A stretch of DNA of 64,000 bases. Origin: Azolla caroliniana. Its lineage: Eukaryota; Plantae; Polypodiophyta. The stretch lies in contig JBHGNT010000011.1 of NCBI GenBank assembly GCA_043228905.1, positions 11,470,001 through 11,534,000 of the forward strand. Direction: 5' to 3'. The notes beneath the pieces are model-generated. The model was not told the origin of the DNA and made no database searches. It saw only the letters and a program-made list of their open reading frames with translations. Positions 23,497 through 57,552 of the stretch are shown here, piece after piece. Numbering within the stretch: position 1 is the first letter of the stretch; each line of letters opens with the position of its first letter. Made by a program: the position numbers and the translations under genes.

Positions 23497-26400
23497 CTAT
23501 GGGTGTCCTTCGTCGCTTCTTCAAAGCTTTCTAGCTCCCCCTCATCGGTTAACAACACGCGCTCTACATCCGGGAATCTCCGGCGGGCCCTTCTCTCTCT
23601 GAGATGACATCTGCGTCTTTGGTTTCCGGCAAACGTGTCGCGTTACTACGCGCGTGCGTGGAGAAACGAGGCGGGACCACCGGGGTCTCGAACCGAAGAC
23701 CAGGTGATAGAAGGGGAAAGAGAAAGAGTGAGACGCCCGATTACGTATGAGCAAAGAAACACAGGGGCACAGCCCGTCAACGCAGAAGACGCGAATGGAC
23801 GCAGAGACAGAGAGACACAAATGTTTGTGTATTAACGAATGACAAATAAACAACAGAGCATGCGAGCGGTTACAACCAAATAGGCCGGCGAACAGATGTT
23901 GATGCCTGTTCGTCTGCACACGAAAGGGGATAGGATGGAGGTGTTGTCGGAAGCACACGGGCGTTCCTCAAAGCAGCGCGAGCCTCCCGAAAACCTGCAG
24001 AGAAGAGCAATAGAGAACAAACAGAGGAGAAGCGTTCGGTTACGGCCCAACAACACTTCGTCCTCCTCAATGCGCGATCCCCTTCTCCCCGCGTCTCCCC
24101 CTCCTTTATAGCTTCAAGAAGGGAGCCGTTTCCCTCATTAACTTCCTACCTACCGAATTTAACTACCTAGGATATACCTTTGTACCTAATCCTCTATTAT
24201 ATACATTAAAGGGCGCGCACGCGTGAAGAGCCGGTTCGCGCGCGCTATGCACCGATTGCGCTAAGGGACAGTTTTCTTCATGACATCCGCCCCTACCTAA
24301 CCGTGCATCCACCAGTATGCGCCAAAATTGGGTTCTAGTTGGAGAAAACCGGTCTGGGTTCCGGTTCCTCGTCCATCGGTTCGTCCTCCGTTTCGGACTG
24401 TTCGTCGTCGCTGTCCGGGCCTCTTACATCCGGTTCGCCGTCGTGGCACTTCTTGAACGCCTTGATCCACTTCCCTGCAACCGGTATCGCCATCCTCATA
24501 CCGTCGAGTTCCGCCAGGTGATACGTCCCGTTGTCGTTGGCGCTCGTTACCACGTAAGGCCCGAACCACCGCTTTGCAAACTTCCGTGTTGCCCGATGTT
24601 GGTTGTCGAGGCTGTTGTCGTAGACTAACACCCAGTCGCCTTCCTCGATTTTCTTTGGTCGGAGCCGGTGCGTTCGGTCGAACCGGGCTTTGTTCCTCAT
24701 CCTCGCCGTCCGAAGTCTCTCCGCCGCTTGTTCCACGTCCCCTGGCCTCCGCTCGAGCTGCTGTATACGCGCCACTAGCAGTTCTTCCCAGCTCATCTCG
24801 TCTCTCCAGTCCACTGTCACCCAAGAGGAGGTCGTCTGTTCCATCGGCATGATCGGCTTCTGTCCGAACATGAGCTCTAACGGCATGAACCCGGTTACCG
24901 AACTGTGCGTTGTCCGGTCCGCCCACAAGGCATAAGGTAACAGTCGTGGCTAGTTCCCGACCTGGCCTCCGCATGCCCGGACTAGCGCTTTGACGATCGG
25001 TCCGTGTCCGCGCTCCACCTTCCCGTTCGCCTCCGGATTGTACGCTGTGGTGAGCGAGAGCTTGACCCCTAACCGGTCAAACAGCTCCTCGGCCTCTTCG
25101 GCGTCCAACTCCCCGCAGTCAGCCACGATCTTCCCGACACACCCGTACCAGCATATCACGTCCTCGATCAGGAACCGACACACGGCCGCAGTCGTTTTGT
25201 TCTACAGGGCTCGGCCTTCCACTTGGTTCGTCAGGTCCTCCCGGGCCAGCACCAGATATCGCATCTGCCCTACGCCCATCGGCATTGTCACTAAATCTAC
25301 CATCCATTTGAAGTGGATGGCCGGAGGGTATGTAGGGTGAAGCTCGTCCCGATGTCGGACTATGGAGTGTATCTGACAGCTCCCACAAGTCGTCACGAAC
25401 CGATGCACGTCCCGGTACAGTCCCGGCCACCAGTACTTCCCTTTTAGTTTCTCGAACGTGGCCCACATCCCACGGTGTCCAGCTCAGGGGTTGTCGTGGT
25501 AGGCCTTCAGCAACTCCTCCTGTTCCTCCTTCATCGCCACTACTTGGAGCGGGATGCCGTTTCTCTTCTTCAGGTGCTTCCACAAGTATCCGTCCCGGAG
25601 AAAGAATCGATACGCTTTCTTCCGGATCCAGTTGGCCTCGTCCTTTGTCCATGACGTGTCCGGCGTCATCGTCCTTAAGAATCCCCCAATCTGCAGCCAC
25701 TCCCTGTCGTACTTGCTCTCGTTGAAATCGTTAAGCGCCGGAGTGCTCCCCCCCTCGGTTGTTACGTACGCCGCCTCGAAGAAGTCCACGCCGACTTCCT
25801 CATCCTTCAAAACCATGCCACCCTCGTCGTCGAATGGCGCCCTCGAAAGCATGTCGGCCATGGCATTGTCTTTCCCGGAAATGTGTCGTATTTCCGGATC
25901 CAAAGACTTGATGTACGCTATCCACCTGAGCATTGCCAGGTCCGGGGTTGCGCATCCGGAGACCATGCCGAGAATCGGCAGGCAGTCCGTCTCGATAATC
26001 ACCTCTGTCCCGATCAGATAGTCTTTATCGGCCTTCACCGCCGAAACGATACCCCAAAGTTCGCGTTTAACCTGGGCGTATCCTCGTTGTCGCTCGCTGA
26101 GGACCTTCGCGCCGAACCGGATTGGGAATCGAATGTCGTCCTCATCTTCTTGGTTGACGACCCATCCGATCCCGGTCGGACTTGTATCTACCGTTATGTA
26201 GATGGGAGTGCCTTTCTCGTAGACAACCTTCCGGAGTGCCGGAGCTGCAGCAAGAGCCTCCTTCATCTTTCGGACCGACTCCGTATGCTCGTCTCGCCAC
26301 TCGAATTTTCGCCCCTTTTTTAGCAACCTGTATAGCGGCTCGGCAACATGGGCGTAATGCGGGATCCATATGTGGTAGAAAGCGCATGCTCCCAAGAACC

Positions 26401-29400
26401 TCCGTACCTCCGTGACCGAGTTACAGTCGGGCTTCATTGCGGAGATGGCTTCCACCTTAGCCGGAGACGGTTTCCGGCCATACGGTCTGCATAGATGTCC
26501 GACGACCATGATCTCTGATTGCCCGAAGGCCGATTTCTCCCCGGAGAAGGTGAGCCTCGCGTCCTCTAGCCTCTACAGCACCCTCTCGCAGTCGTCAATG
26601 TGTGTCGCCACGAACCTCCGGCATCCGTCCGGTCCGATCGTTTCGTCCTTTTCCTCCACCGGACATCCCTTGATTGGGATGTCGTCCAAGAATGGCATGG
26701 TGATGTCCGGGATACAATCCCTCAGCACGTTGTTCATCACATTCACCATGTGGGCCACCAAATTCGTCCCTCCTTGTGGCAGGGTACACATCCACACTAG
26801 GCCGAGAGGAGTCCGCATCGTCGTAATGTCTCTGCTCTCTACGGCTAGTTGGAACTGATCGTACCCCGAGTACAGATCATCGACCGAGTAGATCGGCCTT
26901 CCGGCGAAGGCCTCCGCGAACTTTTCTATCGTTGGTCCGATTCCTGCGTTCCGAATGGTCACTCTGTTGACCGGTTGCAGGTCTTGAATGAAGCACAACG
27001 TCCCGTTCTTCTTCGGTACTGTAAACCACCGGTTTGAGTACGGGGCACTCGACGGTTCGAGGATGCCCATATCGATTTTCTGCCTCAACAGCTCCATCAG
27101 CTCCGGGATGTGAGCTCTCGGTACCGGAATTGGTTTGAGATTCCATGGCACATGCGGTACTGTGAATATCACCATCGGCTTCACGACTGTCGGGTCTACG
27201 CACCCGATCTCTCCCGGTGAGAATGCGAAGGCTTTCCCGTGCTTTCCGAGCATTCTCCGAAACCGGTCTTCTTCCGCCAGCAGTAGGAACCCGCCCCCAC
27301 CGATTTTGAGCTCCCGTAGCGTTTTGTCGGTGAAGGCATGTCCTATGCAGGCCGGATCTCGTAAACAGGGGTCCGACGCAACCCCCTTGATTCGCAACTT
27401 GCTGCCCTCCGGTAAGGGTGCCGCGACTGGCTTTACCTTCCGGTCCACAGTCTTGTACTTCGTGTTAACCCGGGCCGTCCGATCCAACTCGAGCCTTCGA
27501 CTGAAGTCCGCGATGACTTCGTACATCTCTTCTAAACAAACCGGTATCGTCCGGTCCTATTTAAGGCCCTCTCCAACCACCTCTCGCAGTATTCCCAAGG
27601 TATCGTCGAAGGAGACCGCCTCCACGGCTCCGTTGATTTCCTCGTTGGGCCCGAGAACTCCGCACGCCCGAAGTCGCTCTTCCGCCCTTGTCTTTTCTCG
27701 GCCAACGACGCCGACTATCGTACACCCTCCGTGGTCGGAGAAACAAAACTTCCTACTTATGGTACAAGGTTTCTTCGGTTTCGCCTCTATCGTACATTTG
27801 TGGGGTTTTCCCGGAGTGTCCGGACTGTTGCGGCCCCACGCCTTGACAGCCCTCTCTAAAAATCCTCTCGGTTCTCGCCACCGAGGGACTCGCGGTTTTG
27901 CTCGTGGTTCGGTCGCACTGCCAGGAACTGAACCGAATGACGCCCGTCTTGACTCTTCACCCTCGCGTAAGCCGACCCGTTGTCCAGCACCTTGGTCTCC
28001 ATCCGTGCTGCCGTAATGTACGGTTCTCCCAGTATGACCGGGTGCGAGGACGTCTTCTGCACAAAGAAGTGTTGATCTATCTCGACGTCGCCGATCTTGA
28101 CTCGCACGTTTGGGTAGGCCCCGTGTAGTTCCTCGGTGGCGCGCGTCGCCGCCTGTATCTTCCACCCGTGCTTGGTGTTGATCGGCCATTTCCCCTTCTT
28201 GTAGAAGTCCATGGACATCAGGTTTATTTCCGAACCGTGGTCCACCAGCACCACCACCGGTTCCTGAACATCTCCGATCTTCACCAGGGTTTCCGTGGTC
28301 GCTCGGGCCCAGTGTGGCCTCGAGTAGTGGCTCTCCGCCCACTCGTCTTCCAGTGCCATGTCCTCTATGTGCGTCGTCCGCACCTCCACCGGCCTTTCCG
28401 GTTCTGTCTCCGTCGACAACCTCTTCCTCTTCACCAAGTCTAAGATGGAGTCGTGGAACTCCTTCTTGGCGATTCCGAGCACCTCCCGCAACGACAGTTC
28501 CACCTTGCTGTCGAGGATTCGTTCTTCCAGGACCTTTCGTAGGTCCGTGGTCCTTTCGATCTCCGTGCCCAACCGGTATCCGCCCTTCTTGTGGTTATCC
28601 CGGGCACTGGTCTCACCGGCCTCGTTCTGTTTCGGCCTGAATCGGCTTTCGTATCTCTGTGAGGGTTTGGCCCCTCCGGTGTTACCTACCTGTTTGTCTT
28701 CAACCAGAGCCTCGTAGTTCTGGCAAGCTGCTTCGACGAAACCCATCTTTTCTTCGACCGGATCACTCCACCCGGTTACCTCCTGGACCCGCTTCTCCGC
28801 GCGGTCCGCCTCGTCCTTCTTTAGTCAGGCACCAGCGAGGCCTTCCAGCACCGTCGGCCAGAACCTCGCTTTGCTCTCCTTCCGGGCCTCGCTGCCACCA
28901 ACCCGAATACCAGCCGACGCCAAGTAGTGGACGGTCTCCGCGTGCCGGGCTGCCGCCTCTTCCATCAGCCTTTTCATTCCTCCTCGCCCGTCGTTTCGGT
29001 TCAGGGCCCTCCGGGTATTGCTGGCGTGCACCCGACCTTCCCACAGGTACACTACCCGGCTTCTCAAAGCCTCCGCAAAGTCCCCGCAGTCTTTCCGGAT
29101 GTGGCCGACCTCGTCGCACCACATGCACCTATTTCCTGCCGGAGGCCGTCGGTCACGAGCCTATTCGCCACATTCCCTCCGAGCCTGGGCGATCTGGAGA
29201 TCCTTTACCGCCCATGTCAACTCCTCCAAAGTTGTCCCCCCGGACGAGCCTCTGACCACGCCGGTCGAAGCCGAACCGTTTTGGAGCCACTCCCGGGTCT
29301 CTTCCCGTTCGCCTCCGGTATCGGTTTGAGCTTCCTTGCTGCGACAGGACCCACCTCGGTCGCCCCTGTATCAGCCCACTCCCACCGTTTGTCAAAACGG

Positions 29401-32400
29401 CCGCAGACTCTTTTTACTGTGGCCCAGTCCGCCGTCAGCCCGTCTTCAGTTTCCAGTAAAGAGCCCACTTGCTCCCGATCCCGTGCGTCAACCGATTTGA
29501 CAAACAGTAGGACACGACTTGTGTCCAGAACAGTCCGATCGAGCGCCGAAAGGCGCGCAAAGCGATCCTCAAACTCTTGGAGGACTGCCGACGCATTTCT
29601 TCCTTTGTCGGGGGACTCCACCCACCCATGAAGCCCCGCTTCGAAAGTCGAAGCGCGTCATCCAGTCCGTATTTCTCCAGGAGCCGTCCTTCGAACTCCT
29701 CCCAGGTCCGGCTCTCCGCCCGGACCTCGAGCACCTCCGCATGGATGCCCGGCATCGCCACTCGAGGGAATCCGGCAAGACGCCTCTCTTCCAGAATATC
29801 CCTCATCAACATCTCCGCCTGGTAGGACACCAAATAACTCGTAGCATCCTTTCCACTGAACCGGCCGATCATACCGACATTCGCCTCAATAGCCCTGTCA
29901 AGGGCGCCGGTGCCCTCGCGCGCGCTCACTATCCGGTCCACGGCCGAAGCCATGGCCTCTGCAAGATCCAACCCCCTCATCTTCTGCTCCTCCGCCTCCG
30001 GTTTCACGTGGGGTTCACCAAATATGTCGCGTTACTACGCGCGTGCGTGGAGAAACGAGGCGGGACCACCGGGGTCTCGAACCGAAGACCAAGTGATAGA
30101 AGGGGAAAGAGAAAGAGTGAGACGCCCGGTTACGTATGAGCAAAGAAACACAGGGGCACAACCCGTCAACGCAGAAGACGCGAATGGACGCAGAGACAGA
30201 GAGACAAATGTTTGTGTATTAACGAATGACAAATAAACAACAGAGCACGCGAGCGGTTACAACCGAATAGGCCGGCGAACAGATGTTGATGCTTGTTCGT
30301 CTGCGCACGAAAGGGGATAGGATGGAGGTGCTGCCGGAAGCACACGGGTGTTCCTCGAAGCAGCGCGAGCCTCCCGAAAACCTGCAAAGAAGAGCAATAG
30401 AGAACAAACAGAGGAGAAGCGTTCGGTTACGGCCCGACAGCACTTTGTCCTCCTCAATGCGCGATCCCCTTCTCCCCGTGTCTCCCCCTCCTTTATAGCT
30501 TCAAGAAGGGAGCCGTTTCCCTCATTAACTTCCTACCTACCGAATCTAACTACCTAGGATATACCTTTGTACCTAATCCTCTATTATATACATTAAAGGG
30601 CGCGCACGCGTAAAGAGCCGGTTCGCGCGCGCTATGCACCGATTGCGCTAAGGGACGGTTTTCTTCACGACAACGGCTCCTCTGTTTGTTCTTCATCCGA
30701 ATCTGATTCGGGGTCTAGGTCGGTTCTAGTTTCTACTTCTTCTTCTTCTTCAGTCGGTTCGGTTTCCTCTTCGTAAACGGCTGGTTCTTCGAGTGTCAAC
30801 CGGCTCTTAGTTGGGTAGGTCTGTATCTCATCGAACCGATTCTTACCGGTCAACTCGGAGTTCATTATCTTCTTCTCCGACTCCCAGTTGGCAAGGGTCT
30901 TGTCCTCCATGAAGATAACATCTCGACTCCGGAAAAACTTCTTGTCAAACAGATCCGACACTCGGTAGCCAAACTCATCATCGTTGTATCCGAGGAATAT
31001 GCGAGTCCGGGACTTTGGATCCAACTTTGCTCTCTAGTCCTTTGCAACATGCATGTAAATGAGACACCCGAACACCTTCAGATGCTAGTAAGACACTTCC
31101 TTACCGGTCCACACTCTCTGCGGCGTGTCTTCGTCCAAGGGCACCGAGGGTGATCTGTTTATCACGTACATCGTTGTCGCCTACGCCTCAGCCCAAAACA
31201 TCTTGGGTAACTTAGCATGTGCTAGCATACTCCGGACCCTCTCCATTATGGTTTGATTCATCCTCTCGGCCAGCTTGTTTAGTTCCGGCGTCTTCGGCAC
31301 GATAAATTCGAGCCAGATGCCCTTCGAGCGACAGTACTCCTCAAACTACCCCTGGTATTCGCCTCCGTTATCTGCTCGAACCGCCTTCAACTTCCGGCCG
31401 GTTTCTCTTTCCACTCTCGCGTGGAGCTCGTTGAAGACGGATAACACCTAAGCCTTCGTCTTCAACGGTGTGGCCCACAGCTTTCGGTTGTGGTCATCTA
31501 TGAACGTCACGAAGTACTGCGATCCGGCATGTGACTTCGTGTCCACTTGACACACATCGGTATGCACCAGCTCCAGTGGTGCATTACGTCTCATCGATGG
31601 CCTTGAGTGGAAGGAGGTCCGGTTTTGATTACCGTCCAGGCAGTCGGTGCACTTCTCAAGATGCACGTCTTTCACCGGAATGAGGTTGTCATCGGCCAGT
31701 CTCTTCATCCCCTTCTCCCTCATGTGACACAGTCTCTTGTGCCACAGCTCACCGGCAGTGTCAAATGCAACGTTCACTTCTTCCGGGCACAACCGGGCAT
31801 TCATCAGGTACAATGTGTTGACCTTCCAGGCCCGAGCCACTATTAGGCTCCCTTTGCTGAACTTCATGACTCCGTTCCGGATGCTACCCGTGTAGCCTTC
31901 ATCGTCTAGCCGATCGGTTGATATTAGGTTCAGTCGAACCTCTGGAACGTGCCGGACATCCTTCAGCAGCAACTTGCATTCGATTGGTGTTGTCAGCCAC
32001 ACGTCTCCTATGCCGACAATTGGGCATGTACCTTCATTCCCCATCCGGACACAGTCGTGATCGCCGGCTGTATAGGATGAGAAGCATTTCCGGTCCGGGG
32101 TCAGATGGAACGACACTCCGGAATCAACAACCCACGTTGTCTCGTCGCCGGCAAGGTTCAACTCACTCTCCTCGGTGATGAGCATCAACTCTTCTTCACT
32201 TGCCACGATTGTCGTCGTTCCCTTCCGGTCCGGTCCTCTCCGGTCTATGTCGTTTCGTTCCGGTCCGGTGACCGCTTCGAATCGGTACTGTCGGTTTCCT
32301 TGTCTTTCCAGAAATGCCGACAATTCTTCTAGAAGTGCCCCGGCTTCCCATAGTAGAAGCAAGTGGGCCTTCCCCTTAACTTTGACCGTGTCCCTGACTT

Positions 32401-41607: not shown

Positions 41608-44600
41608 TGTCGCGAAGTTTCGCGTTCGCGTCTAAGAAGAGGCAGGACCATGGGGGTCTTGGACCAAGGAGAAAGTGAGAGAGAGAGAGTTGCAAAAACA
41701 CAGAAAGAAAATAAGAGCAAGAAACAGGAATACGATTACTATAATCAGTAGTTTACAGCTCGAACAGTTACAACCGGCAAACCGGTAATGGACCTGACAC
41801 GGGTCCTACTCACGCACACAAACGACAACCACTCGACTCAAAGAAACAAAAAGGGGGGAAGGGGGGGAGGAGAGCCTCTGCTGGAAGCACACGGGCTGTC
41901 CACGAAGCAAAGGCAGCGAACTCTCGACACCCACAGTGAACGACGATCGGAGGAGAGAGAGCTCGGCCCTCGGTTCTGCAACAGCACTTCGTCCTCGCCA
42001 ACGCGCGATCCCTTTTCTTCCTTCTCTCCCTCCTTAAATAGTTCGCAAAAGGGAGACCCTTCTTCCCTAGTCCAATCGCTTTATTCCATGTCCCTTTCGA
42101 AAGAGATACGTCCAAATCCCCTAATAGATGCGTACTACCTAGTATTTACATCAGCCGACCTAATTATGAATTATGTACAAAATATCAATTCTCGCGTCCA
42201 CCCATGTAAGAGCCGGTTCATGCCCCTTTTTCTCCGATTCCGCCTATGGCCGGTTTTCTTCACGACATCCACCCCCACCAAACCGTGCATCCACTGGCAT
42301 GCGCCAGAGACGGGTAGATACCGAAGAAAACCGGCTTCACTCATCGCTCTCTGATTCTTCGCTGGGCCCGAACCGATCTTCGTCGTCGCTCTCGCTCGCC
42401 GGCTCTGGCTCGCCTTCGAACCGCTTCTTGAACGCTTTGATCCGCTTCCCGGCCACCGGTACGGCTAACCGTATCCCGTCGAGTTCCGCGAGGTGGTACG
42501 TGCCGTTGTCGTTCGCGCTCGTCACCGCGTAGGGCCCGAACTATCTCCTAGCAAACTTTCGCACCGCCTTGTGCTGATTGTCGAGGCTGCTATCATACAC
42601 CAAGACCCAGTCACCTTCCTCGAACTTCTTTGGTCGTAACCGGTGCGTTCGGTTGAACCGGGTGTTGTTCCGCTCCCTTGCCGCCCGCAGCTTTTCCTTC
42701 GCCCGTTTCATGTCCTCCGGCCTCCGCTCGAGTTGCCGAATCCGCGTTGCCAGCAACTCCTCCTGGCTCATCTCGTCCTTCCAATCTACCGCTGCCCACG
42801 AAGAAATCGTCCATTCCACCATCATGATCGGCTTTTGTCCATACATCAGCTCTGCCCGCATCAACCCTGTCACCGAACTGTGCATAGTTCAGCCTGCCCA
42901 TAGTGCGTAAGGAAGGAGCCGCGGCCAATTCCCGACCTACCCTCCGTATGCACGCACCAACGCCTTTACGATCGGCCCGTGCCCATGTTCTACCTTCCCG
43001 TTCGCCTCCGGATTATACGCCGTAGTGAGGGAGAGTTTGACCCCTAGCCGGTCGAACAACTCCTCAGCTTCTTGCGCATCCAGCTCTCCCCGGTTTGCCA
43101 CGATCCTCCCGACACACCCGTACCGACACACTACCTCTTCGATCAGGAACCGGCATACCGTCACGGTTGTCTTGTTCTGTAGTGCACGGCCTTCCACCTG
43201 GTTCGTTAAGTCTTCCAGCGCAAGCACCAGGTATCACATCTGTCCTACTCCCATCGGCATCGTCACCAAGTCCACCATCCACTTGAAATGGACCATAGCG
43301 GGTAGGTCGGCTGTAGCTCGTCCTGATGTCGGACTACGGAGTGCATCTGACAGCTTTCGCAAGTCGTTACGAACCGATGTGCGTCCCGGTATAGCCTCGG
43401 CCACCAGTACTTCTCCTTCAGCTTCTCGAATGTGGCCCACGTTCCGCGATGCCCGGCCCAGGGACTCTAGCGAAATGCCGCCAGTAATTCCTCCTGTTCT
43501 TCTTTCTTTGCCACTACTCGGAGCGGGATGCCGTTTCTTTTCTTTGGGTGCCTCCATATGCACCCGTCCCGTAGGAAGAATCGGTACGCCTTCTTCCGTA
43601 CCCGGCTCGCCTCTTCTCTCGTCCACGTTGCGTCCGGCGTCATCGCCCGTAGGAACCTCCCGATTTGGAGCCACTCCCCATCGTACCTGCTTTCGTCGAA
43701 TTCGTTAAGAGCCGAAGTGTCCCCTTCCCTCGTCGTCACGTTAGCCGACCCGAAGAAGTCCTCGCCGACTTCTTTGTCATCCGAAACCATGTCGTCTTCG
43801 TCATTGAACCTCGCTCTCAAAAGCATGTCGGCCATGGCGTTATCCTTTCCGAAGATGTGCCGTATCTCTGGGTTAAGGGACTTAATGTACGTTATCTATC
43901 GGAGCATTGCTAGGTCCGGCGTCGCGCATCAGGAAACCATGCCGAGTATCGGCAGGTAGTCCGTCTCGATTATTACCTCCGTCCCGATCAAGTAGTCCCT
44001 GTTGGCCTTGACTGCCGAAACGATACCCCATAGTTCACGCTTGACTTGGGCGTATCCTCGCTGCTGCTCGCTCAATACCTTCGCCCCGAACCGGATCGGG
44101 AACCGTACGCCGTCCTCGTCCTCCTGGTTGATCACCCACCCGATCCCTATCGAGCTCGTGTCCACCGTCACGTAGATGGGGACTCCCTTGCCGTAAACCG
44201 CTTTACGGAGAGCTGGCGCTACCGTAAGCGCCTCCTTTAGTCTCCGGATCGACTCCGTGTGCTCCGTCCTCCACTCAAAGCTACGCCCCCCTTTCAATAG
44301 TCCGTAGAGGGGTTTCGCGACATGTGCGTCCTCCATATGTGGTAGAATGCGCATGCACCCAAGAATCTGCAGACCTCCGTAACCGACCCGCAATCGTTCC
44401 TCATCGCGGAGATGGCCTCTACCTTTGCCGGAGACGGTTTCCTACTGTAAGGCCCGCACAGGTGTCCGACCACCAAGATCTCTAACTGCCCAAACGCCGA
44501 TTTTTCTCCGGAGAAGGTGAGTCGTGCGCTCTCGAGCCTCTACATCACCTTCTCGCAGTCGTTGATGTGGTTCATGACGAACCTCCGGTATCCGTTTGGC

Positions 44601-47600
44601 CCGACAGTCTCGTCTGCATCTTCCACCAGACACCCCTTTATCGGGATGTCGTCCAAGAATGGCATGGTGATGTCCTGGATGCAATCACTCAGCACCTTGT
44701 TCATTGCGTTCACCATATGCGTCACCAAATTCGTCCCGCCTTGTCGTAGGGTACACATCCGTACTAGGCCGAGAGGAGTTCGCATCGTCATGATATCCAT
44801 GCTCTCCATGGCTAGCTAGAACTGGTCGTACCCCGAGTATAAGTCACTGACCGAATAAATCAACCTTCCAGCGAAGGCCTCCGCAAACTCGTCTATGGTC
44901 GGTCCGATTCTTGCATTACGGATGGTCACCTTGTTGACCGGCTGCAGGTCCTAAATGAAGCGCAGCGTGCCGTTCTTCTTCGGCACCGTAAACCACCGAT
45001 TCGAATATGGGGCACTCGACGGTTCGAGGATGCCCATCTCCACCTTTTTCTTCAAAAGCTCCATCAACTTCGGGATGTGAGCTCTCGGCACCGGAATCGG
45101 TTTGAGATTCCACAGTACATGCGGTACCGTGAAGATCACCATCGGTTCAACGACCGTCGGGTCCACGCACCCGATCTCCTCCGGTGAGAACATGAAGGCT
45201 TTCCCATGCCTTCCAAGCATTCTCCGAAACCTGTCCTCCTTCGCCGGCAGTAGAAAGCCACCCTCGCCGATCTTGAGCTCCCGTAGCATTATGTTGGTGA
45301 ACCGGTGCCCTATGCCAGCCGGATTCCGTAAACTTGGGTCCGACACGGCCCCTTTTATCCGCTCCTCGTTGCCCTCCGGCAAGGGTGCCGCGACTGGCCT
45401 CACCTTCCGGTCCACAGTCTTGTACTTTGTGTCCACGCGGGCCGTCTGATCTGACCCGATCCTTTCCCCGAAGTCCGCGATGACTTCATACATTCCCATC
45501 GAACCAACCGGAATGGTCCGGTCTTCTCTAAGGTCTTCACTGATCACCTTTCGCAACTCACCCAAGGTGTCATCAAAAGAGACTGCCTCCACGGCGCCGC
45601 TGATTTCTTCATCGGGGGAGAGGACTCCACATCCCCTGAGCCGCTCCTCCGCTCGTTTCCTCTCCCAGCCGTTGACGCCGGCTATAGTACAACCTCCGTT
45701 TTCGGAGAACCAAAACTTCCTACTTACTATACATGTGTGGGGTTCTTCCGGTACGTCTGGACTACCGCGGCCCCACACCTTGATAGCCCTCCCTAAAAAT
45801 CCCCTCGGTTGTCGCCACCGAGGGTCTCGCGATTCCTCTCATGGTTCAGACGTACGGTCATGAATTGGACGGAATGCCGACCGTCTTGGTTCTTGACACG
45901 CGCGTACGCTGAACCGTTGTCCAACACCTTCGTCTCCATGCGTGCTGCCGTAATGTACGGTGCGCCGAGAATCATCGGGTGCGAGGATGTTTCTTGCACG
46001 AAGAAATGTTGATCTATCTCGACATCACCGATCTTTACGCGTACATTTGGGCACGCACCATGCAACTCCTCCGTAGCACGCGTCGTTGCGGGTATCTTCC
46101 ACCCATGCTTGGTGTTGATCGGCCATTTACCCTTCTTGTAGAAATCCATGGACATCAGGTTGATTTCGGATCCATGGTCTACCAAGGCCACCACAGGTTC
46201 CGGAACATCGGCGATCCGCACAAGGTTTTCCGTAGTTGCCCTGGCCCAATGCGGCTTCCCGTAGTGGCTTTCCGCCAACTCGTCTTCTAGGCCCATGTCT
46301 TCTAAGTACATAGTCCGCACCTCCATCGGCTTCTCCGGTTCCGGCTCCGTCAAGAGCCTCTTCCGCTTCACCAAGTCTACGATGGAGTCGTGGAACTCCC
46401 TCTTGGCGATTCCCAACACCTCCCGCAACGACAGCTCCACTTTACTGTCAAGGATCCGCTCTTCAAGAACCTTCCGTAGGTTCGTTGCTCTCTCGATTTC
46501 GGTGCTCAACCGAAACCCCACCTACTTCTTCCCATCCAGCGCGCCTGGGTTGCCGGCATCGGTTGGTTTCGGTCCGAACCGGGTCTCGTACCTTTGTAGG
46601 GGACCGACCCCTCCGGCCTTTCCTGCCCATTTGTCTTCCACCAAAACCTTGTAGTTCTGGCAAGCGGCTTCTACAAAGCCCGTCTTCTCTTCAACCGGAT
46701 CGTCCCATCCGGTGACCTCCTGGACCCGCTATTCAGCGCGGTCCGCCTCTTCCTTCTTCAGCCAAACTCTGGAGAGGCCTTCTAGCACTAGCGGCCAGAA
46801 TCCGGAGTCCTTCGCCTTCCGGGTCTCGTCACCCCCGACCCGAATTCCCGCCGACGTTGAGTAGTTAACGGCTTCTTCATGTCGTGCGCGGCCTCTTCCA
46901 TCAACCTCTTCATTCCACCGCGCCCCGTATTCAGTTCTAGGGCTCTCCAGGTCTCGCCCGCGTGCACCCACCCGTTCCAGAGGTACACCACGTTGGTCCT
47001 GAGTGCGTCGGCGAAATCCGCGCAATCCTTCCGAATGTGACCGATCGCGTCACACCACATGCACCGCTGCCCAGCCGACGGCCTCCGGTCGCGAGGTTGT
47101 TCGCTGTTGTCTCTCCAGGCCTGTGCGATCTGCAGGTCGCGCACCATCTGTGTCAGCTCCTCTAGAGCCGCTCCTCCGGATGGGCCTTTGACCACATCGT
47201 TCAATGCCGACCCCGACTCCAGCCAAATTCGGGTCTCTTCCTTCCTACCGGTTGGCACCGATACCGGCTCCTCGAGCCTCCTCGCCGGGACTGGTCCTGA
47301 CTCCGACGAGCTTTCATCGCTCCACTCGTGCCGTTTGTCAAAACGGCTACAGACCCATTTTACCACGGCCCAATCTGCCGTGAGCCCTTCGTCTGTCTCC
47401 AATAAGGGACCCACCTTTTCCCTGTCGAGCGCGTCCACCAACTTGACAAACATTAGTACTCGACTCATTTCGAGCACGGTCCGGTCCAGCGTCGACAGCC
47501 GCGTGAATCGTTTCTCGAACTCCTGGAGGAGCGCCAACATGTTCCGCCCTTTTCCGGGGCTTTCCACCCACACCATGAAGTCCCGTGTCGACAGCCGAAA

Positions 47601-48630
47601 AGAGTCATCAAACCCGTACTTCTCGAGGAGCTGCAGCTCGAACTCCTCCCAAGTCTGGCATCCGACTAGCACCTTGAGCACCTCCGCGTGGATGCTCGGC
47701 GTCACCACCCGAGGGAATACGGACAGCCGCCTGTCCACCGGGATATCCCTCATGATCATTTCGGCCCGGTAAGCCTCCAAATAACTCGTGGGATTCTTCC
47801 TACCGAATCGGCCTATGCTGCCGACAATCGATTCAATGGCTCTGTCGAGGGTACCCGTCCCCTCACGAACGCTCACTAGTCGGTCGACGGCTACCGCCAT
47901 TGCCTCTGCTAGCTCCGATCCCCTCATCTTCCGACTCCTTTGTCGCCTGTTCACGTCGGGTTCACCAATTATGTCGCAAAGTTTCGCGTTTGCGTGTAAG
48001 AAGAGGCGGGACCACGGGGGTCTTGGACCAAGGAGAAAGAGAGTGAGAGAGAGAGAGAGTTGCAGAAACATAGAAAGAAAATAAGAGCAAGAAACAAGAA
48101 TCTGATTACTATAATCAGTAGCTTACAGCTCGAATAGTTACAACCGGCAAACCGGTAATGGACCTGACACGGGTCCTACTCATGCACACAGATGACAGCT
48201 ACTCAACAGAAACAAAAGGGGGGGGGGGGGGGGAGAGCCTCTGCTGGAAGCACACGGGCTGTCCACGAAGCAAAGACAGCGAACTCCCGACACCCACAGA
48301 GAACGACAATCAGAGGAGAGAGAGCTCGGCCCTTGGTTCTGCAGCAGCACTTCGTCCTCGCCAACACGCAATCCCTTTTCTTCCTTCTCTCCCTCCTTAA
48401 ATAGTTCGCAAAAGGATGACCCTTCTTCCCTAGTCCAATTGCTTTATTCCCTGTCCCTTTCGACAGAGATACGCACAAATTCCCTAATAGATGCGTACTA
48501 CCTAGTATTTACATCAGCCGACCTAATTATGAATTATGTACAAAATATCAATTCTCGCGTCCACCCATGTAATAGCCGGTTCATGCCCCTTTTTCTCTGA
48601 TTCCGCCTATGGCCGGTTTTCTTCATGATA
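41608..48630 (-). mobile_element. Element H: full-length degenerate Ty3/gypsy of the same lineage as E (different LTR family)
   Basis: LTRs 41608-42267 and 47972-48630; PBS 47950-47967; PPT GGTGGGGGTGGA at 42268; gag-PR 47927-45793; pol 45802-42337; flanks ACGT/GCGT. Confidence 0.95.
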
Positions 48631-49587
48631 GCGTAATTTGTGAGTTGTCGGCTTGCGGAAGCCAATTCGCACATTTTCTTTCGGCACTCTTCTTCGTGGT
48701 GGCCGAGCTTTCCGCAATATCCGCAATATCCGCATTCGGTTGTGTTTTGACGGCTCGGGCCAGAGTGGAAGCTCCCCCTTCTTGCGAAGGTTCCTTGTTG
48801 ACTTTCGTTTTGCGGCCGAAATTGGGAGTTGTTGTTGTAGGTCGGACCTCGTCCACCTTGTCTTTGGCCGAATCGGCCTCTCGCTCGTCCACGTCCTCTT
48901 CCTCCATTCAAGTGCATGTACAACATGTGGCCTTCCGACTCATTGCTCCTTGTACACACATGGTTTTCTTCGACCAATAGCATTGATTGGAGTTTGAAGA
49001 AGGAGGGATATTTCTCCCGTGCTAGAACAGCGGTTCGCATCGCGCCGAACCGTGGTGCGAGGCCGCCGAGGCATATTTGCACCATCTCATCATCATCGAT
49101 ATTTATGCCTATCGAGCCGAGCAAGTCGCAAAGCTCCTTGATCTTCAAGGTGTATGTCGTGATGGACATGTCCCTTTGTTGAATGTTGTTCAACTCTTGG
49201 CGGAGTTGAAGCCTTCTTGTGGTTGTGTTCGCCGCAAAAATCTTTCGTAGATTTTCCCATGCCTCCTTCGGCGTCTTGGCTTCGCGAATGGAGCCGAGCA
49301 TGTGATCGTGAACACATGTCGCCAAGCAATACATCACGCGGCTTGCAGCTTGCTCCCATGTCACGTTGTCGTGATGTTTTCAACACATAGTGTGAAACCA
49401 CCACAAAAAAAGAATAAAGTAGTAGTTGAAATAAACTAATATTGTGAAGTCAACTTTTGTAATAAATGATGAAAAGATAAGAAGGTAGAAGCGAATTTTC
49501 AAAAGCAGAAAAAAAATAGATAAAGTAAAAAAATAATAATGATAATAATAATAATAATAACACAAAAAAAACGCAAGGCGTGGAATT

Positions 49588-52500
49588 TGTCAGGAATAGT
49601 ACTAAGCAGAGATGGAATTAGTACTAAAGAAGAGCAGTACTATTAGTACTAAGAGGACGGGACTGCGTAAGTCTCCCGAGAGAGAGAGAGAAAAAGAGAA
49701 GCAAAAAGAGAGATAGCGAGGATGAGAGAGAGAGAGAGAGATGATGATGACAGCCAATATATTATGTGAAGGATAAGTACAAAATGGCTAAAAGGCTTAA
49801 GACTGGCTTTGAACCAATTTGGTTCAAAACAATGCCTTGTGCCTCCTTTTATAGTGTTTTTAGGAATAATCCTGAAGCTTCTAGAATGTTCCAAAGAGAT
49901 TTGGAATATACATCAATTTTCTATGATAAAGCATAAATGAAAATAATATCCTACAAATTACAATTCATAGTCTAATGGTAAGAGCTCGACCCATGTAGTA
50001 TAAGGTCATGGGTTCGAGTCTTGCCATATCATGACACTATTTCCCCCTTCAAGACGACGAGTGGAACGAGTCGGCGCTGGTTGCGGACCGGGTTTGTCTG
50101 GATACTTTCAGTGGAAATCAGCAAGAAGATCCTGTGCATTGGCAACATGCTCGACGGGTTCCCAAGTACGTTCGCTTGGACTATAACCGAGCCAATCGAC
50201 CAAGTAATAAAGTTTGTTGCGAACAAGTTTGGAATCGAGGATGGCAGCAACTTCATACTCCGGGCCGGCGTCCAACTCCAGCAGGGGCGGCGGTGGTGTC
50301 ACACGATCAGGAATGGTGTTTGCTTTATAAGGTTCAAGAAGAGAACAATGGAAAACCGGATGTATCTGAAGCTGCGGAGGGAGATCAAGGCGGAATGTGA
50401 CATCATTAATCTTACCCGTAATACGGAAGGAACCGAGTCGTCGATAATCCAACTTGTCGCACGGTCGAGTAGTCTTGATGTGAAGACGTAAGAGCCATAC
50501 TCGATCTCCGATGGCAAAAGAGGAGGGAATCCGATGACGATCCACATAAGTCTTCTGTGTGTGTTGAGCATGACAAAGGTGAGTAGAGAGATCCATCTGG
50601 ATCTTGTGTAGCCTCTCCAAATGATCCTCGGCACGAGGGTTGGTAGGTAGCTCCAGGGTGTCGATCACCGACCAGCGAGGATGGAAACTGGTATATAAGC
50701 GAAAAATGGGGAGACCCGAGTCGAGGAGTGAATAGCATTATTATACGCAAACTCCGCAAAGTGGAGAATCTCGGCCCAATCGTCCTGTTGATAACTCAGG
50801 AAACACCGAAGATATTGCTCCAGCGTTTGGTTTGTTCGTTCCGCCTGCCCGTCGGTCTGAGGATGGTAGCCGGAGGAGAGGTTGCAAGAGACCTTGAGCA
50901 TCTTCAAGAGATGCTGCCAAAATTTGGAGACAAATTGCGGTCCTCGGTCACTGATGATATTATCTGGGAGGCCATGATGCCGAAATACCTCACGCATAAC
51001 AAGGGCGGCGGTTTCCTCGCTAGTGATGGCTTTAGTACACGGCACAAAATGTGCCATCTTCGTATATCGATCGACGACGGTTAGGATAGCATCGAACCCC
51101 TTCGAGACCGGCAGATCTGTGATAAAATCAAGACAAATAGACTGCCACAGCTTACTTGGAATCGGTAAGGGTTCCAACAAGCCATATGGATGGTGTCGTG
51201 GCATCTTTGCTCTTCAGCAAGCATCATAGGTCTGAACGTAGTCGTCGACAAAACGGCGGATGTGGGGCCACCAAAAAGATCGTTGCACTATCTCCAACGT
51301 CTTAGTACTACCGAAATGTCCCGCCGTATGGGTGTCGTGACAATGCTGGACGATTTGAAGGCGACAGGAGCCATCGGGGACATATACGCGCTTTTTAAAG
51401 AATAACAAACCCTCATGATATTCGAATTGTCGGTAGTCAATACCTGGTTGTTGACACTGAGAACAGGATGCCCGAGAAGTATCAATGTGCGCCAGGATGT
51501 CTTGAGCAAAACTATCCGTCTTCAAGGTTGCACGTATGTCATCGGTAATCCGAGAATCCATCGAGGTGTGAAAATCCGCGTCGTGTGCAATCGTGTTGGT
51601 CCCAAGATTACTTGCTTTTGATTATCAAATGTTGCATCACCAGGACGAGGTGCAAGATATGAACGTCGTGATAGTGCATCTGCTTTTCCTTGCTGCTTCC
51701 CCGGTCAATATGTGATTTTGAAGTCGAAACGCGTGAGGAATTGAGCCCACCGAGCTTGCCGTCGATTTAGTACGCGAGCGTTCTGAAAATAAGCAAGATT
51801 TTTATGATCGCCAAAGACAATGACCTGATGTGGAGAGCCCTCTAAGAAATGCCGCCATTGCACAAATGAATCCACGATGGCTAATAACTCCTTGTCATGT
51901 ATTTCGTAGTTGATTTCTGCGACATCAAATTTGCGCGAATGGAAAACCACCGGATGCAACTCTTCTTTATCTCCTTGTTGAGAAAGGATGCTACCGAGGG
52001 CGAAATCTGATGCGTCGGCCTCCATCATGAATGGTTTGCTTGTATCCACATGAGCTAGAATCGGTGCTGATGTAAAGGCTTTCTTAAGATGCTGAAAAGC
52101 CATATCTGCTTCGATGGACCAAAGAAATGCTTGGCCCTTCTTCGTAATTTGTGTGAGAGGTAAAATAATCTTCGAGTAATCCTGTATAAACTTACGGTAG
52201 AAGTTAGCAAAACCTAGAAAACATTGTACATCTCGTACCGACCGTGGAATTTGCCACTCTAGTACAGTTTGGATTTTAGTTGGATCCATGGCGATGCCTT
52301 TTGAGGAGATGACGTAGCCTAGAAATTCCACTTGTTTGCAATCAAAGCTACATTTTTCTAGCTTGGCATAAAGACCATTCTCGCGGAGTCACTTTAGTAC
52401 TAAGAGTACATGAGAATCGTGCTCTTCCTGGGTCTTCGAATAAATCAATAGATCATCCAGATAGATGATCAAACAAATATCCAAGAGGTCTCTGAATATA

Positions 52501-55500
52501 TCATTTGCCATGTGTTGGAAGACTGCGGGTGCATTGGTTAGGCCGAACGGCATAACAGTATACTCGAAATGCCCATACCGCGTGCGAAAGGCGGTCTTCC
52601 ATTCATCTCCTGGTCGGATCCGCACAAGGTTATACGCTCCTCGTAGGTCGATTTTAGTAAAAAACTTGGCACCATTAACTCGCTCTAAAAGACTTGATAT
52701 AAGAGGAAGTGCATACCTATTCCGGATGGTGACTTTATTCAATCCACGGTAATCAACGACGAGACGAAGTGAGCCATCTTTCTTCTTGACAAAGAAGATG
52801 GGTGCACCGGCCGGAGATTTCGAATGACGGATGAACCCGCTTGCCAAGTTCTCCTCTATGTAGGCTTGAAGGACTTCTAACTCGGTGGGTGACAAGTTGT
52901 AAATTGGTCCCCATGGTGGCTCGGTTCCTGGTTGTAAATCGATGGGACAGTCATAGGGACGGTGATGAGGAAGGGTACCGGCTTTTACCTTGTCAAATAC
53001 ATCGGCATAAGGATGATATTTTGCCGGAAGTTGTACTGAGGAGTCCTTCTTAATAGTGCTGGAAGGATGTACTGATATGGCAAATAGGAACATTGCCTCC
53101 TTGGGTCCTTCGCGTAGTTGATGGAGTGAAATGGTCGAAACTCGGTGAGTTGATTCTTGGGGTGGTCGATATCGGACTTCTCTTGTTCTCCAATCTATGG
53201 CTGGATTATGTAATTCAAACCAAGGTAATCCTAGGACAATGGGATGCTCTAGACTACTAATTATATTAAATGATATTATACACACAAAACTACCTAGGAC
53301 AACTTGAATGGGTTCTGATTCTTCTACAATATTCCCGGAAGCAATGGGACGACCATCAATGACTACTACAGATGCGGGACAAGGAAGTTTTCTTAAGGAT
53401 ATCTGAGAAGCTTGGGCAAAATTTCGATCCATGAAACAGGAATTAGCTCTGGAATCTAAAAGTGTTAGGACGGGTACTGGGGGAGTACTTTTAGTACTAA
53501 CAATGACTTGGTCTAGGAACACATTGCTAACTTGCTTGGAAGGAATGGAACCACTAATGGGCTGTACAGATCTAGGCCTGCTGTCCAACCAAACGGCGCC
53601 TATTTTGGCTGGACTCAATCGTTTAACTCTTCATCTAATTGACTAAGGATTTCAAATTTATTTGAGATACTTGGGCTATTAGTACTATGAATACTATCTG
53701 ACACTCTATTAGTACTATTAATACTATCAGACACTCCGAAGGGAAGAATTGACTCGGGTTTAGTACAGGCGACTATTTGATTTACCTATCTTCTTGGCCT
53801 ATGGGGACAATTGATGGCGATATGCCTTGGTCCACCGCAATAAAGACATAATCGATTGGCACTTCATCGTTGCTTTTCTTCTTCCGATAACGGGCCGCAT
53901 CGACGCATGATATCGATCTGCATCGGTGTCGAAGTATTTGCTTGAGGTATGTCTCGTGCAAACGGTTTAGCCGCGACTGCGACGTAAGTGGGCTCCGGCC
54001 TAGAGCATGGTATCTGTAATTAACGTTCTGAACGTCGTTCGAAAAGGCGGTTGTCACATCGGACCGCTCGACTAATTGCCTCCGTAAGAGACTTTGGTTC
54101 TTCGGGGAAAGTTAGAAGTAGATCTTCGACATCGTTTCGCAAGCCATAGCGAAACTGCTCCATTAGTGCTTGATCATCCCAGGGTATATCTGAAGCAAGT
54201 AGGCGGAAATCCGCCGCGTAGGCAGAGGCTCAACGATCGCCTTGACGCAATCGCCGGATCTTGTTGATCGCCGTCCTGATGCTGTCTGTTACCCGGACCC
54301 GGACAGTCAGTTTTACCGAACAAGTGGGAAAGCGTCGAAAACGGAGTCGGTTCGGATCGACTGTTCGGATCAATGACTCAGCAGTAAACGAAGAGAACTA
54401 AGTTAGTTAGATAATTTTGTAATTCTTGATAGTAAGTAGGAATAGTTCTTGATGAGAAAAGACCTTCGGTATACCTATAAAAGGGAACCGAAGGCATTGT
54501 AAGAAAGGTCGTTTTATTTAGTAATATAAGTTTAAGTTAGGAATATCCTGTACGGATTCTGTGTTCTTTCTATTGTCTATGTTGTTAAGTGCAAGCTTCC
54601 TAATTTATAACTAAGTAACGATCACGGTATTTACCGATTAATATAGTATAATTCCGTTCGTAAAACACAATTCCTTGTTAGAACGTTGAGTAGCGATGTT
54701 CACTCTTCTGTATCGGTAGTAGTTAGTAATTAGCCGATTAACACTGTTGGTGTCTCCAAAGCAGGCTTTAAACTCACTAATAAAATCTTCAAAGTTATTA
54801 AGCAAGGGCGATTGTTTTTCTAGAAGCGGAGCGAACCATGGTAAGGCTGAGCCGCTAAGCAATGTGCCTATTAGGCAGACTCGAGATGCATCATTGGGAT
54901 AACGGGAAGGATGCATTTGGAGGACTAATCGTACCTGATTAAGGAATCCCCTGAATTGCGATTGCGTTCCATCAAATCTCATAGGAAGTCCAATCTTCAA
55001 CTCTTTATGAAATCCTTGGGGACTTGATCCTTGTTGTTGCAATGCCGCTTCGAGTTGTTGCACCCGTAACGCTAACTCCCCATGTTGTTGCTGCGTTTGT
55101 TGTTTTTCTAGAGCGATTTGTTGCAGATCCCCTATCAGTCGTTGGTTTTCTTGTTCCAAGGCAACAAATTTTTCTTTTAAGCATTGTAGCTCGGAGAAAA
55201 CGGATTGATATTCTTGGGCGCTAACAGTAGCCATAGTATAGGGAAAAGGGTAGGAGGATGAGGGAGAACGACAAGTAGGTTGGAGAAAAGAAAATTGGTT
55301 CAAATTGTCAGGAATAGTACTAAGCAGAGATGGAATTAGTACTAAAGAAGAGCAGTACTATTAGTACTAAGAGGACGGGACTGCGTAAGTCTCCCGAGAG
55401 AGAGAGAGAAAGAAAAGCAAAAAGAGAGATAGCGAGGATGAGAGAGAGAGAGAGAGATGATGATGACAGCCAATATATTATGTGAAGGATAAGTATAAAA

Positions 55501-55752
55501 TGGCTAAAAGGCTTAAGACTGGCGTTGAACCAATTTGGTTCAAAACAATGCCTTGTGCCTCCATTTATAGTGTTTTTAGGAATAATCCTGAAGCTTCTAG
55601 AATGTTCCAGAGAGATCTGGAATATACATCAATTTTCTATGATAAAGCATAAAGGAAAATAATATTCTACAAATTACAATTCATAGTCTAATGGTAAGAG
55701 CTCGACCCATGTAGCATAAGGTCATGGGTTCGAGTCTTGTCATATCATGACA
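49588..55752 (-). mobile_element. Element J: full-length degenerate Tcn1/Tf1-like chromovirus
   Basis: LTRs 49588-50036 and 55306-55752; TSD GAATT; PPT GAAGGGGGAAA; PEG10/sushi-like gag from ATG 55234 (RFDGT..FRGFLNQ, CLYCGGPRHIAINC); RT IDLRGAYNL/YLDD; RNase H EADASD; integrase; chromodomain EYEVAAILD...YLVDWLGY...TWEP. Confidence 0.95.
54287..54743 (+). repeat. Solo LTR K inserted in gag of J; distant relative of the A LTR
   Basis: TGTTA...TAACA termini; flanks CTGTC/CTGTT; ACCTATAAAAGG...CATTGTAA resembles ACCTATTTAAAGG...CATTGTAA in the A LTR. Confidence 0.85.
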
Positions 55753-57552
55753 GAATTGAGGAGCAAGATAGAGAAAAAAGCTCATAATTTCTTCATCCGG
55801 TGTCCAAATTAGACAAGAAAACATTCATAAGAAAGCTAACTCAAAGGGCTTTCCAAAAATAGATTTCATGTCTAATTTGGACTTACAAAAATAAAATAGT
55901 GATAGAAATAAAACACAACTCATATAGACAAGCTTTTTTTTAGGAGAAAAATAAAGCAAACCATAGTAAACCTATAAATAAGAACTTATTTTAAGAAGAA
56001 GATAGACGGGGATTGAATAAGAAAAGATTTATATTTCCTCTCTCATACTCTTATACCCCAAAAGGGGAGATAGGAAAAAAAAAAAATCATGTATCAAAAC
56101 AAGTCCATTATATTGATGATTTAGTAATAAAAACTTTCCATATTTCTTCTCTTATGCTCTCTTATTTTAAACATTGCTTATGTATAAATATAATTAAGTG
56201 TCATTCATACTCCCGTAATCTAAGCTTTTCTTACTTATTAGCATTATTAAGTATTATTCAATCTCACATAATCTCCTACTCGAAGATTTGCTTATGCATA
56301 AATGTAATTAACTATTATTCGATCTCTTATACTACCAATTTACTCTTATTAGAGGGAAATCACTCGTCTTTAAGCCTAAAATACATTAAGTGTTAAGCCC
56401 TAAATCCTTCCCGTCCAGAACCCCGGCGGTTCCGCCTCACGATCCGCGCTTATTGGCGGATTTTCACGACAGCGTATCCGAGAGCCGTTTCGATGGGTCG
56501 GTCTTCGTGCGCTCCTTTGATGTAGCTCCAATAGCCTTGTCCGACAAGGTATTGGTGCATCATGTACTCCCAAGATGCGAAGTTGTTTCGATCCAACTTC
56601 TCGGTTGAGAGAGCGCTCCCCATTTGAGTATTCATTATGTCGATTCTTCTTCTTCTTCTTCTTCTCTCTTCGAATACGAGCTATGTAGTCGCACTACGAT
56701 AGCGATGAGCCGGTTCTTCTTGAACGTCGGCGTAGAGCTCAACACATGATCACGATGAGGCGAGTGGGCTAGATCGAGCTACCAAATCGCTCTGATACCA
56801 TGTAAAGAATCGGGTATCATTCTTGTGTAGCGGAATAGGTGAGAGATGTCCGTTATGTGAGTGAGAGAGAGAGAGACTGAGAGAGAGACAAGGAGTAAGA
56901 CACAGAGAATGCGCAAGGTTAAGTATATTAACAAAGGAGAAAGACTCAACATTATACAAGGTGGGAGGAGGGTGCTTTATATAGTCACCCTCTCTCTTCA
57001 TTAACTACAAGGCTCATGGAGGATGGGGAATGTGGAAGCTCATAAGTTATGTGTCATAGAATATGATTCTATGACTCATACTAAATGCTAGAATACAAAG
57101 TGGTGACATAATGGTGACTCTTGACCGTTGGATTGTCTATTCACTCTCAAGGTGAGTTCACACACTAGACCAAGTTGAGCTTGATTCTCAATAGGAATAT
57201 GCTGAAATACACAACTCTAAAGCACAAAAAATAGTGTACACAAATTTAACGTGGAAACCCTAAAGCATGAGAAAACCACGAAGAACGGAGCTTCACTATA
57301 TAGTGGATATACAACAACGAGATCAGAGTACAACATTGTGTAAATAGCCTCTCAGGGCTCTTGGCATATGCTATTACAAAACACAATTATGGCATCGCTC
57401 ACTCTCTCACGCTCTCATACACACACTCTTCTCTATCGCACTACACCACAAAGGCTCACACATCTATCTCTCTACGTGTTCTGTTTGCCCTAGGTGTATT
57501 TATACTAATACACAGAATGGGCTATTTACAATCATGGCCATTATTATTATCC

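What the first reader, a model, noticed from the sequence alone, without database searches (positions are those of the whole stretch)
47950..47967. tRNA-Trp-primed gypsy lineage with non-standard, fungal-like pol motifs
Seen: PBS TGGTGAACCCGACGTGAA in H, and with one mismatch in E (30003-30020), 4 nt from the LTR; the gag ATG is only about 22 nt further. From memory this matches the 3' 18 nt of plant cytosolic tRNA-Trp; plant elements normally use Met, Arg, Asp, Asn or Lys. The motifs DLYSGYDQ, LPQGGTN, PFLDDIPIKG, RFGAKVL and protease DHGSE are unlike Athila, Tat or chromoviruses and recall fungal/charophyte gypsy elements (inference). Two LTR families plus solo LTR I suggest a diversified resident clade.
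Basis: partly seen in the sequence, partly recalled or inferred. Interest (0 to 1): 0.75.

Follow-up and report, generated by a model that had tools for sequence, protein, structure and literature searches.

The report
Phygy-type tRNA-Trp-primed plant retrotransposons
These are two decayed plant jumping genes whose primer site likely pairs with a tryptophan tRNA and which inserted at CG-centred 4-base targets, the signature of an already described moss lineage (Phygy) to which they likely belong; the less familiar point is that their enzymes group with fungal and Chara elements rather than with the other plant Gypsy elements beside them.

Summary
The 18-nt site is at 47950-47967 (element H, exact) and 30003-30020 (element E, one mismatch), 4 nt from the LTR and 22 nt before the gag ATG.

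The claimed surprise is mostly wrong. REXdb lists tRNA-Trp as the main primer of Phygy (81%) and TatI (75%), and names Phygy as the only plant lineage preferring NCGN targets. All 6 insertion junctions I could read have CG at positions 2-3; two are confirmed as 4-bp duplications by empty sites. There is no chromodomain, extra RNase H or extra ORF. Named close relatives are liverwort and fern proteins (53-70%). This is very likely Phygy, but no Phygy reference sequence was available for the defining tree.

The fungal/Chara resemblance is real but deep (35-38%). E nests in a land-plant clade inside a 100/100 group with fungal and Chara elements; grouping with the window's Athila-like element is rejected. 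Recent transfer is not supported.

Side finding: gag-protease and RT-RH-IN are separate frames joined at G GAU UUU UAG, a likely -1 frameshift site. Verdict: new member of a known kind.

The parts
47950..47967 (-). PBS of element H, 18 nt, likely complementary to the tRNA-Trp 3' end
41608..48630 (-). Element H, 7023 bp Ty3/gypsy, decayed (stops and frameshifts), inserted in a copia element
47972..48630 (-). H 5' LTR (659 bp)
   Evidence: 93.9% to the 3' LTR, K2P 0.065
41608..42267 (-). H 3' LTR (660 bp), preceded by a G-rich PPT-like tract at about 42268-42279
48631..48634 (-). H left target copy ACGC; right copy ACGT at 41604-41607. The empty site in the paralogous copia near 20176-20179 holds ACGC once: 4-bp NCGN duplication
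45793..47927 (-). H gag-protease region (CCHC-type knuckle, DUF4100 hit, DHGSE); broken here, one 721-codon frame in relative L001
45793..45802 (-). H G GAT TTT TAG: end of the protease frame and likely -1 slip into the RT frame
42373..45778 (-). H RT-RNase H-integrase, no chromodomain and no extra RNase H; broken
30003..30020 (-). PBS of element E (one mismatch)
23636..30672 (-). Element E, 7037 bp; LTRs 30025-30672 and 23636-24285, 96.9% alike (K2P 0.032); flanks CCGT / CGT, inserted in a copia coding region
27856..27865 (-). E G GAT TTT TAG, the same likely frameshift site
24392..27838 (-). E RT-RNase H-integrase, one frame with 5 in-frame stops from 27553 down
49367..56471 (+). Solo LTR-like element I of the same clade (940 bp net; shares the U5 motif and TGTCG...CGACA ends); target copies ACGT / GCGT, empty site ACGT. 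A chromovirus (49588-55752, 5-bp duplication GAATT) is nested in it

Best explanation
E and H are decayed Ty3/gypsy retrotransposons with an 18-nt primer site and CG-centred 4-bp target duplications, likely members of the Phygy lineage of non-seed land plants and likely primed by host tRNA-Trp. Inferred cycle: the element is transcribed from the 5' LTR. Gag and protease are made from the first frame, and a fraction of ribosomes slips -1 at G GAU UUU, just before the UAG, to add RT, RNase H and integrase. The 3' 18 nt of tRNA-Trp anneal at the PBS and prime the first strand; the G-rich tract before the 3' LTR primes the second. Integrase makes a 4-bp staggered cut centred on CG. Shown: layout, PBS conservation, duplication length and motif, the split reading frames, the tree position. 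Inferred: primer identity, frameshifting, Phygy membership. The 'fungal-like' motifs are old features of a wider clade that also holds fungal and Chara elements.
For: REXdb Phygy profile (PMC6317226 supplementary file 5, read whole; section 13): 4-bp TSD NCGN 100%, tRNA-Trp 81%, no extra domain, no extra ORF, and the only plant lineage with a target motif.

Junctions: 6 of 6 readable junctions have CG at positions 2-3. They are H and I (duplication confirmed by empty sites), E (3 of 4 letters agree), L001 and L017 (one flank each) and one contig of run X6 (one flank, table 5c). Background NCGN frequency is 0.064 per site.

PBS in relatives: in 10 of 20 metagenome loci that reach upstream of gag it has 0,0,0,0,1,1,2,2,3,5 mismatches.

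Domains: no chromodomain or second RNase H by Pfam in P0001/P0002, the E integrase tail, P0123 or L002.

Hosts: all species-named hits listed are liverworts or a fern (15 of 120; 34 of 120). E nests with Riccia sequences. Phygy is already reported from a liverwort (PMC12885004, passages).

Frameshift site: present in E, H and L001, the 3 copies that span it. The heptamer is the one used by umbraviruses (PMC4737148, passages). Of 75 relatives of 1000-1250 aa, 74 lack the protease motif in their first 400 residues.
Against: No Physcomitrium Phygy sequence could be obtained: REXdb files 1 and 3 are too large to read, and no moss-named protein appears among the listed hits. The defining tree test is therefore undone. 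At 7.0 kb the elements are below the Phygy range of 7.66-9.97 kb. E's duplication lacks one letter. The host tRNA set was not available, and none of 171 loci scanned held a tRNA gene. The hairpin after the slippery site is not significantly stable (z -0.9 to -1.5).
Confidence: 0.82

Rival explanations
1. A separate, undescribed plant lineage that shares Trp priming and NCGN targeting with Phygy but has a different, fungal-type RT.
For: No direct comparison with Phygy was possible. The elements are shorter than listed Phygy. Grouping with the window's Athila-like element is rejected (AU p 1e-61), whereas REXdb files Phygy under 'non-chromovirus' together with Athila/Tat.
Against: It needs the same rare primer, the same unique target motif and the same compact layout to arise twice in non-seed plants. 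REXdb treats Phygy as a clade separate from OTA and says the relation of non-chromoviruses to non-plant elements is unclear, so the AU result does not conflict with Phygy.
Confidence: 0.12
2. Recent horizontal transfer of a fungal element into this host.
For: Shared motifs and a shared DUF4100 region with fungal elements. The nearest ESM Atlas feature clusters of the RT piece were mostly Basidiomycota (few members have a taxon record).
Against: RT-RH identity is 36-38% to three named fungi against 59-66% to Riccia and 66% to Adiantum over RT. The land-plant clade is 100/100 and spans liverworts. The family is diverse and shared by several organism labels.
Confidence: 0.02
3. TatI or Selgy element.
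For: TatI uses tRNA-Trp (75%) and 4-bp duplications; Selgy is compact with 4-bp duplications.
Against: TatI always has an extra archaeal RNase H between protease and RT; none was found. An OTA affinity is rejected, using the window's Athila-like element as a proxy. Selgy uses tRNA-Ala, has no NCGN preference, and splits its frames before the protease.
Confidence: 0.04

Closest known systems
Phygy (non-chromovirus Ty3/gypsy, REXdb; Neumann et al. 2019, PMC6317226: sections 8, 13, 15, passages and supplementary files 5 and 6 read)
   Same: tRNA-Trp-type PBS; 4-bp NCGN duplication; no chromodomain, extra RNase H or extra ORF; coding region fills the interior; non-seed plant hosts.
   Different: 7.0 kb against 7.7-10.0 kb. 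Host not shown to be a moss. REXdb left the ORF layout undetermined, while here it is gag-protease / RT-RH-IN with a likely -1 slip. Sequence identity to Phygy untested.
TatI (OTA superclade, Selaginella; same paper)
   Same: tRNA-Trp PBS and 4-bp duplication.
   Different: No extra RNase H; RT far from the Athila-like proxy.
Fungal non-chromovirus Gypsy elements (Ylt1-like and SN_1006; PMC2864245 and PMC3248453, passages) and Chara braunii GBG86999
   Same: Named basidiomycete, ascomycete and Chara proteins share the RT motifs and fall in one 100/100 clade with E; 3 of 4 also hit DUF4100.
   Different: Only 35-38% RT-RH identity. That this fungal clade is Ylt1/SN_1006 is a lead only; no reference sequence was available.
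Umbravirus -1 frameshift signal (PEMV; PMC4737148, passages)
   Same: Heptamer G GAU UUU next to a UAG stop.
   Different: Here it joins protease to RT in a retrotransposon; no significant stimulatory structure shown.

Membership tests
Phygy | RT-RH-INT cluster with P. patens Phygy elements (the primary definition) | not testable with these tools
   REXdb sequence files too large to read; no moss-named hit listed; no Phygy sequence found in the supplements searched
Phygy | 4-bp target duplication with NCGN preference | tested here: met
   6 of 6 junctions CG-centred; 2 confirmed by empty sites, E with 3 of 4 letters
Phygy | PBS complementary to tRNA-Trp | tested here: met
   16 of 18 match to the Rfam RSV PBS; complement is a CCA-ending plant small RNA; not compared with the host's tRNAs
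Phygy | No chromodomain and no extra RNase H | tested here: met
   Pfam scans; the same scan finds the chromodomain of the nested chromovirus
Phygy | No extra ORF; coding region fills the interior | tested here: met
   ATG 22 nt after the PBS; integrase match ends about 105 nt before the 3' LTR
Phygy | Length 7.66-9.97 kb (descriptive; the authors call size relatively insignificant for classification) | tested here: not met
   7023 and 7037 bp (ranges; statement)
TatI | Extra archaeal RNase H between protease and RT | tested here: not met
Selgy | PBS for tRNA-Ala; GAG / PROT-RT-RH-INT layout | tested here: not met
   Trp-type PBS; protease in the gag frame
Chromoviruses (including Tcn1) | Chromodomain after integrase | tested here: not met
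   24% RT-RH identity to the window's chromovirus
Ylt1 / SN_1006 fungal clades | RT-INT cluster with Yarrowia Ylt1 or the SN_1006 elements | not testable with these tools
   no reference sequence in the supplement searched; named fungal proteins do share the wider clade

The most novel reading that the evidence does not exclude
Phygy-type elements are not relatives of Athila/Tat at all. They are the land-plant branch of a fungal-rich Gypsy clade that entered early land plants from fungi, separately from the Chara branch, then spread through bryophytes and ferns. They combine CG-targeted integration with a plant-virus-type -1 frameshift placed after the protease.
Probability: 0.3. Interest if true: 0.55.

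Novelty: new member of a known kind. Interest (0 to 1): 0.27.

Why it matters
The headline (Trp priming) is already in the reference classification, so it matters little. Two points could interest a specialist. First, REXdb left open how plant non-chromoviruses relate to non-plant elements; here a Phygy-type clade groups firmly with fungal and Chara elements and not with an Athila-like element, which makes a second ancient fungus-plant link beside Tcn1 testable. Second, REXdb could not determine Phygy's ORF layout; these copies point to gag-protease plus a -1 slip at G GAU UUU UAG, which a simple reporter assay can test.

Tried and rejected
Host tRNA match: no genome held and no tRNA in the window. 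Pattern scans of prokaryote and viral collections gave 120 and 31 loci, none with a tRNA gene by ARAGORN. Paper searches for a printed tRNA-Trp sequence tied to this 18-mer found none.

Phygy reference: not obtainable. The P. patens RLG paper (PMC7466625, passages and one supplement) does not map RLG2/RLG3 to Phygy, and its trees are pictures. The Riccia sorocarpa genome paper has none of the 4 terms searched. Four further papers only list the name Phygy. 'DUF4100' appears in no paper searched; my recollection that Pfam describes it from Physcomitrella is unverified and not counted as evidence. REXdb supplementary files 1 and 3, which I could not see, bear directly on membership.

Naming distant relatives: of 20 representatives looked up, 5 carried species names (1 Riccia, 3 fungi, 1 Chara). 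A search from fungal-side P0360 listed 120 hits without species names. Most rows of the wider clade therefore have no known host.

Streptophyte monophyly: holding the plant clade together with the Chara clade is not rejected (AU p 0.135), so vertical descent from algae remains open. The trees use RT-RH only and LG+G4 without a mixture model. One search used 36 rows picked by hand from the 162. The RT-only Adiantum and Calypogeia hits were dropped for short coverage.

Expression: no RNA holder listed. Three poly(A) runs added by species label gave 325, 214 and 616 laid reads from about 12 million each, nearly all under 95% alike, so they come from other copies. The downstream frameshift hairpin is not significant. 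Earlier-findings look-ups returned nothing on this lineage.

Full report
Setting. The window is a nest of plant LTR retrotransposons; no whole genome is held. Self-comparison gives two related minus-strand Ty3/gypsy elements: E (23636-30672) and H (41608-48630). Each is about 7.0 kb, with LTRs of 648-660 bp that begin TGTC(G/A)TGA (TATCATGA in H's 5' LTR) and end GCGACA. LTR pairs are 96.9% (E) and 93.9% (H) alike; between families they are about 75-77% alike with many gaps. Both elements carry stops and frameshifts and are dead copies.

Observation. Of 20 related metagenome loci, 10 reach upstream of gag. Four carry the site exactly, two with 1 mismatch, two with 2, one with 3, and one is degenerate with 5; the mismatches fall at scattered positions. 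The quoted pol motifs are present, except that H reads LRQGGTN.

Which tRNA. I could not compare with host tRNAs. Two indirect lines agree on Trp. The Rfam scan aligned the site to the Rous sarcoma virus PBS consensus at 16 of 18 letters (the model as a whole is not significant), and RSV priming by tRNA-Trp is established knowledge. The exact complement, ending in CCA, is an abundant small RNA in a conifer, filed there under miR894 and mapped to a gypsy repeat (PMC5846777, passages). That it is the plant cytosolic tRNA-Trp end is otherwise my recall.

Is Trp priming unusual? No. REXdb names tRNA-Trp among the main primers of plant non-chromoviruses. Its supplementary table gives Phygy: 186 elements, 4-bp duplication, NCGN in 100%, tRNA-Trp 81%, no extra domain, no extra ORF; and TatI: Trp 75%, with an extra RNase H. 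The text says Phygy is the one exception to random target choice.

H sits in a copia element that has a paralogue in the window; its flanks are ACGC and ACGT, and the paralogue holds ACGC once. A solo LTR-like element I (49367-56471, +) shares the U5 motif and termini; its flanks are ACGT and GCGT, and the empty site holds ACGT once. E has CCGT and CGT, one letter short of a 4-bp duplication. Two metagenome loci whose LTR start abuts non-PPT sequence show ACGT and ACGC (L001, L017; in L002 and L005 the LTR follows the PPT). One contig of run X6 continues from the LTR edge with GCGT. So 6 of 6 junctions are CG-centred, against a background of 0.064. The chromovirus nested in I has an ordinary 5-bp duplication.

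Domains and layout. Pfam finds RT, RNase H and integrase, and no chromodomain or second RNase H; DUF4100 lies just before the protease. Coding sequence fills the interior. In relative L001, gag and protease are one 721-codon frame ending at G GAT TTT TAG, and RT-RH-IN starts in the overlapping -1 frame. E and H have the same ten letters at the same place. G GAU UUU is the slippery heptamer of PEMV and four other umbraviruses, and a stop at or near the site is usual in these viruses (PMC4737148, passages). Of 75 relatives of 1000-1250 aa, 74 lack a protease motif in the first 400 residues, so the split looks lineage-wide. Frameshifting is inferred; the downstream hairpin is not significant.

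Relatives. Species-named hits to the RT piece are Adiantum nelumboides, Riccia sorocarpa, R. fluitans and Calypogeia fissa (15 of 120 listed; 34 of 120); none is from a seed plant or fungus. A search of all cluster representatives reached a second tier at 32-44%, in which the named members are Phenoliferia, Tilletia, Zalerion and Chara braunii. RT-RH identity to E is 85% for the closest unnamed protein, 59-66% for Riccia, 35% for Chara, 36-38% for the fungi, and 23-24% for the window's Athila-like and chromovirus elements.

Trees. In the 36-row IQ-TREE (subset of the 162-row tree), E nests with Riccia (97/96) in a 12-row clade (100/100). That clade lies inside a 30-row clade with the fungi and Chara (100/100, branch 0.63); the order of branches inside the large clade is weak. 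Holding the plant clade with the Athila-like element is rejected (AU p 1e-61); holding it with the Chara clade is not (p 0.135). Fungal non-chromovirus Gypsy elements are described as Ylt1-like and SN_1006 (PMC2864245, PMC3248453, passages); whether this is that clade I could not test. One search for Ylt1 + gypsy + clade + Physcomitr returned only that first paper, and the passages I saw do not link Ylt1 to a plant lineage.

Abundance. Twenty public runs hold parts of E, under four organism labels plus leaf metagenomes. Thousands of divergent contigs lie on its LTR in each of four DNA runs: a large resident family.

Verdict. The element works like Phygy in every diagnostic feature I could test and is likely a member (0.82). 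It is slightly short, and the defining tree with REXdb references remains to be run. Phygy was described from one moss and has since been called in a liverwort, so this is a new member of a known kind. What remains of interest is the deep tie to fungal and Chara elements, a point REXdb left open, and the likely post-protease frameshift.

Noticed in passing
window 27856-27865 (-), 45793-45802 (-); L001:4948-4957 (+): The protease frame ends at G GAT TTT TAG, the umbravirus-type slippery heptamer plus stop, overlapping the RT frame; a likely -1 frameshift after the protease rather than after gag.
   Followed up: partly
window about 9083-9115 (+) and 61391-61424 (-): Two Athila-like elements have no purine tract before the 3' LTR but a conserved stretch ending in CCA two bases from the LTR, like a tRNA 3' end. 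Earlier notes on this genome describe the same feature.
   Followed up: no
window 964-9063 (+): Athila-like element with an uninterrupted 1670-codon gag-pol frame and a 1001-codon 3' extra ORF without a Pfam hit.
   Followed up: partly
window 49588-55752 (-): Chromovirus with SH3 and chromodomain hits, a 5-bp duplication and no TGG-type primer site after its 5' LTR; Tcn1-like by these features, not tested by tree. Nested in solo LTR I.
   Followed up: partly
window 12670-18237 (-) and 22876-23496 (+): Young copia with an open 1367-codon frame and near-identical LTRs, plus an inverted solo LTR of the same family.
   Followed up: no
window 47950-47967 (+): The PBS complement is the small RNA catalogued in many plants as miR894; it is likely a tRNA-Trp 3' fragment that could target this lineage's PBS.
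   Followed up: partly
window 28400-28700 and 46350-46520 (-): Pfam DUF4100 marks the stretch just before the protease in E, H, Riccia, Chara and two basidiomycete elements; it looks like a retrotransposon region typical of this clade.
   Followed up: partly
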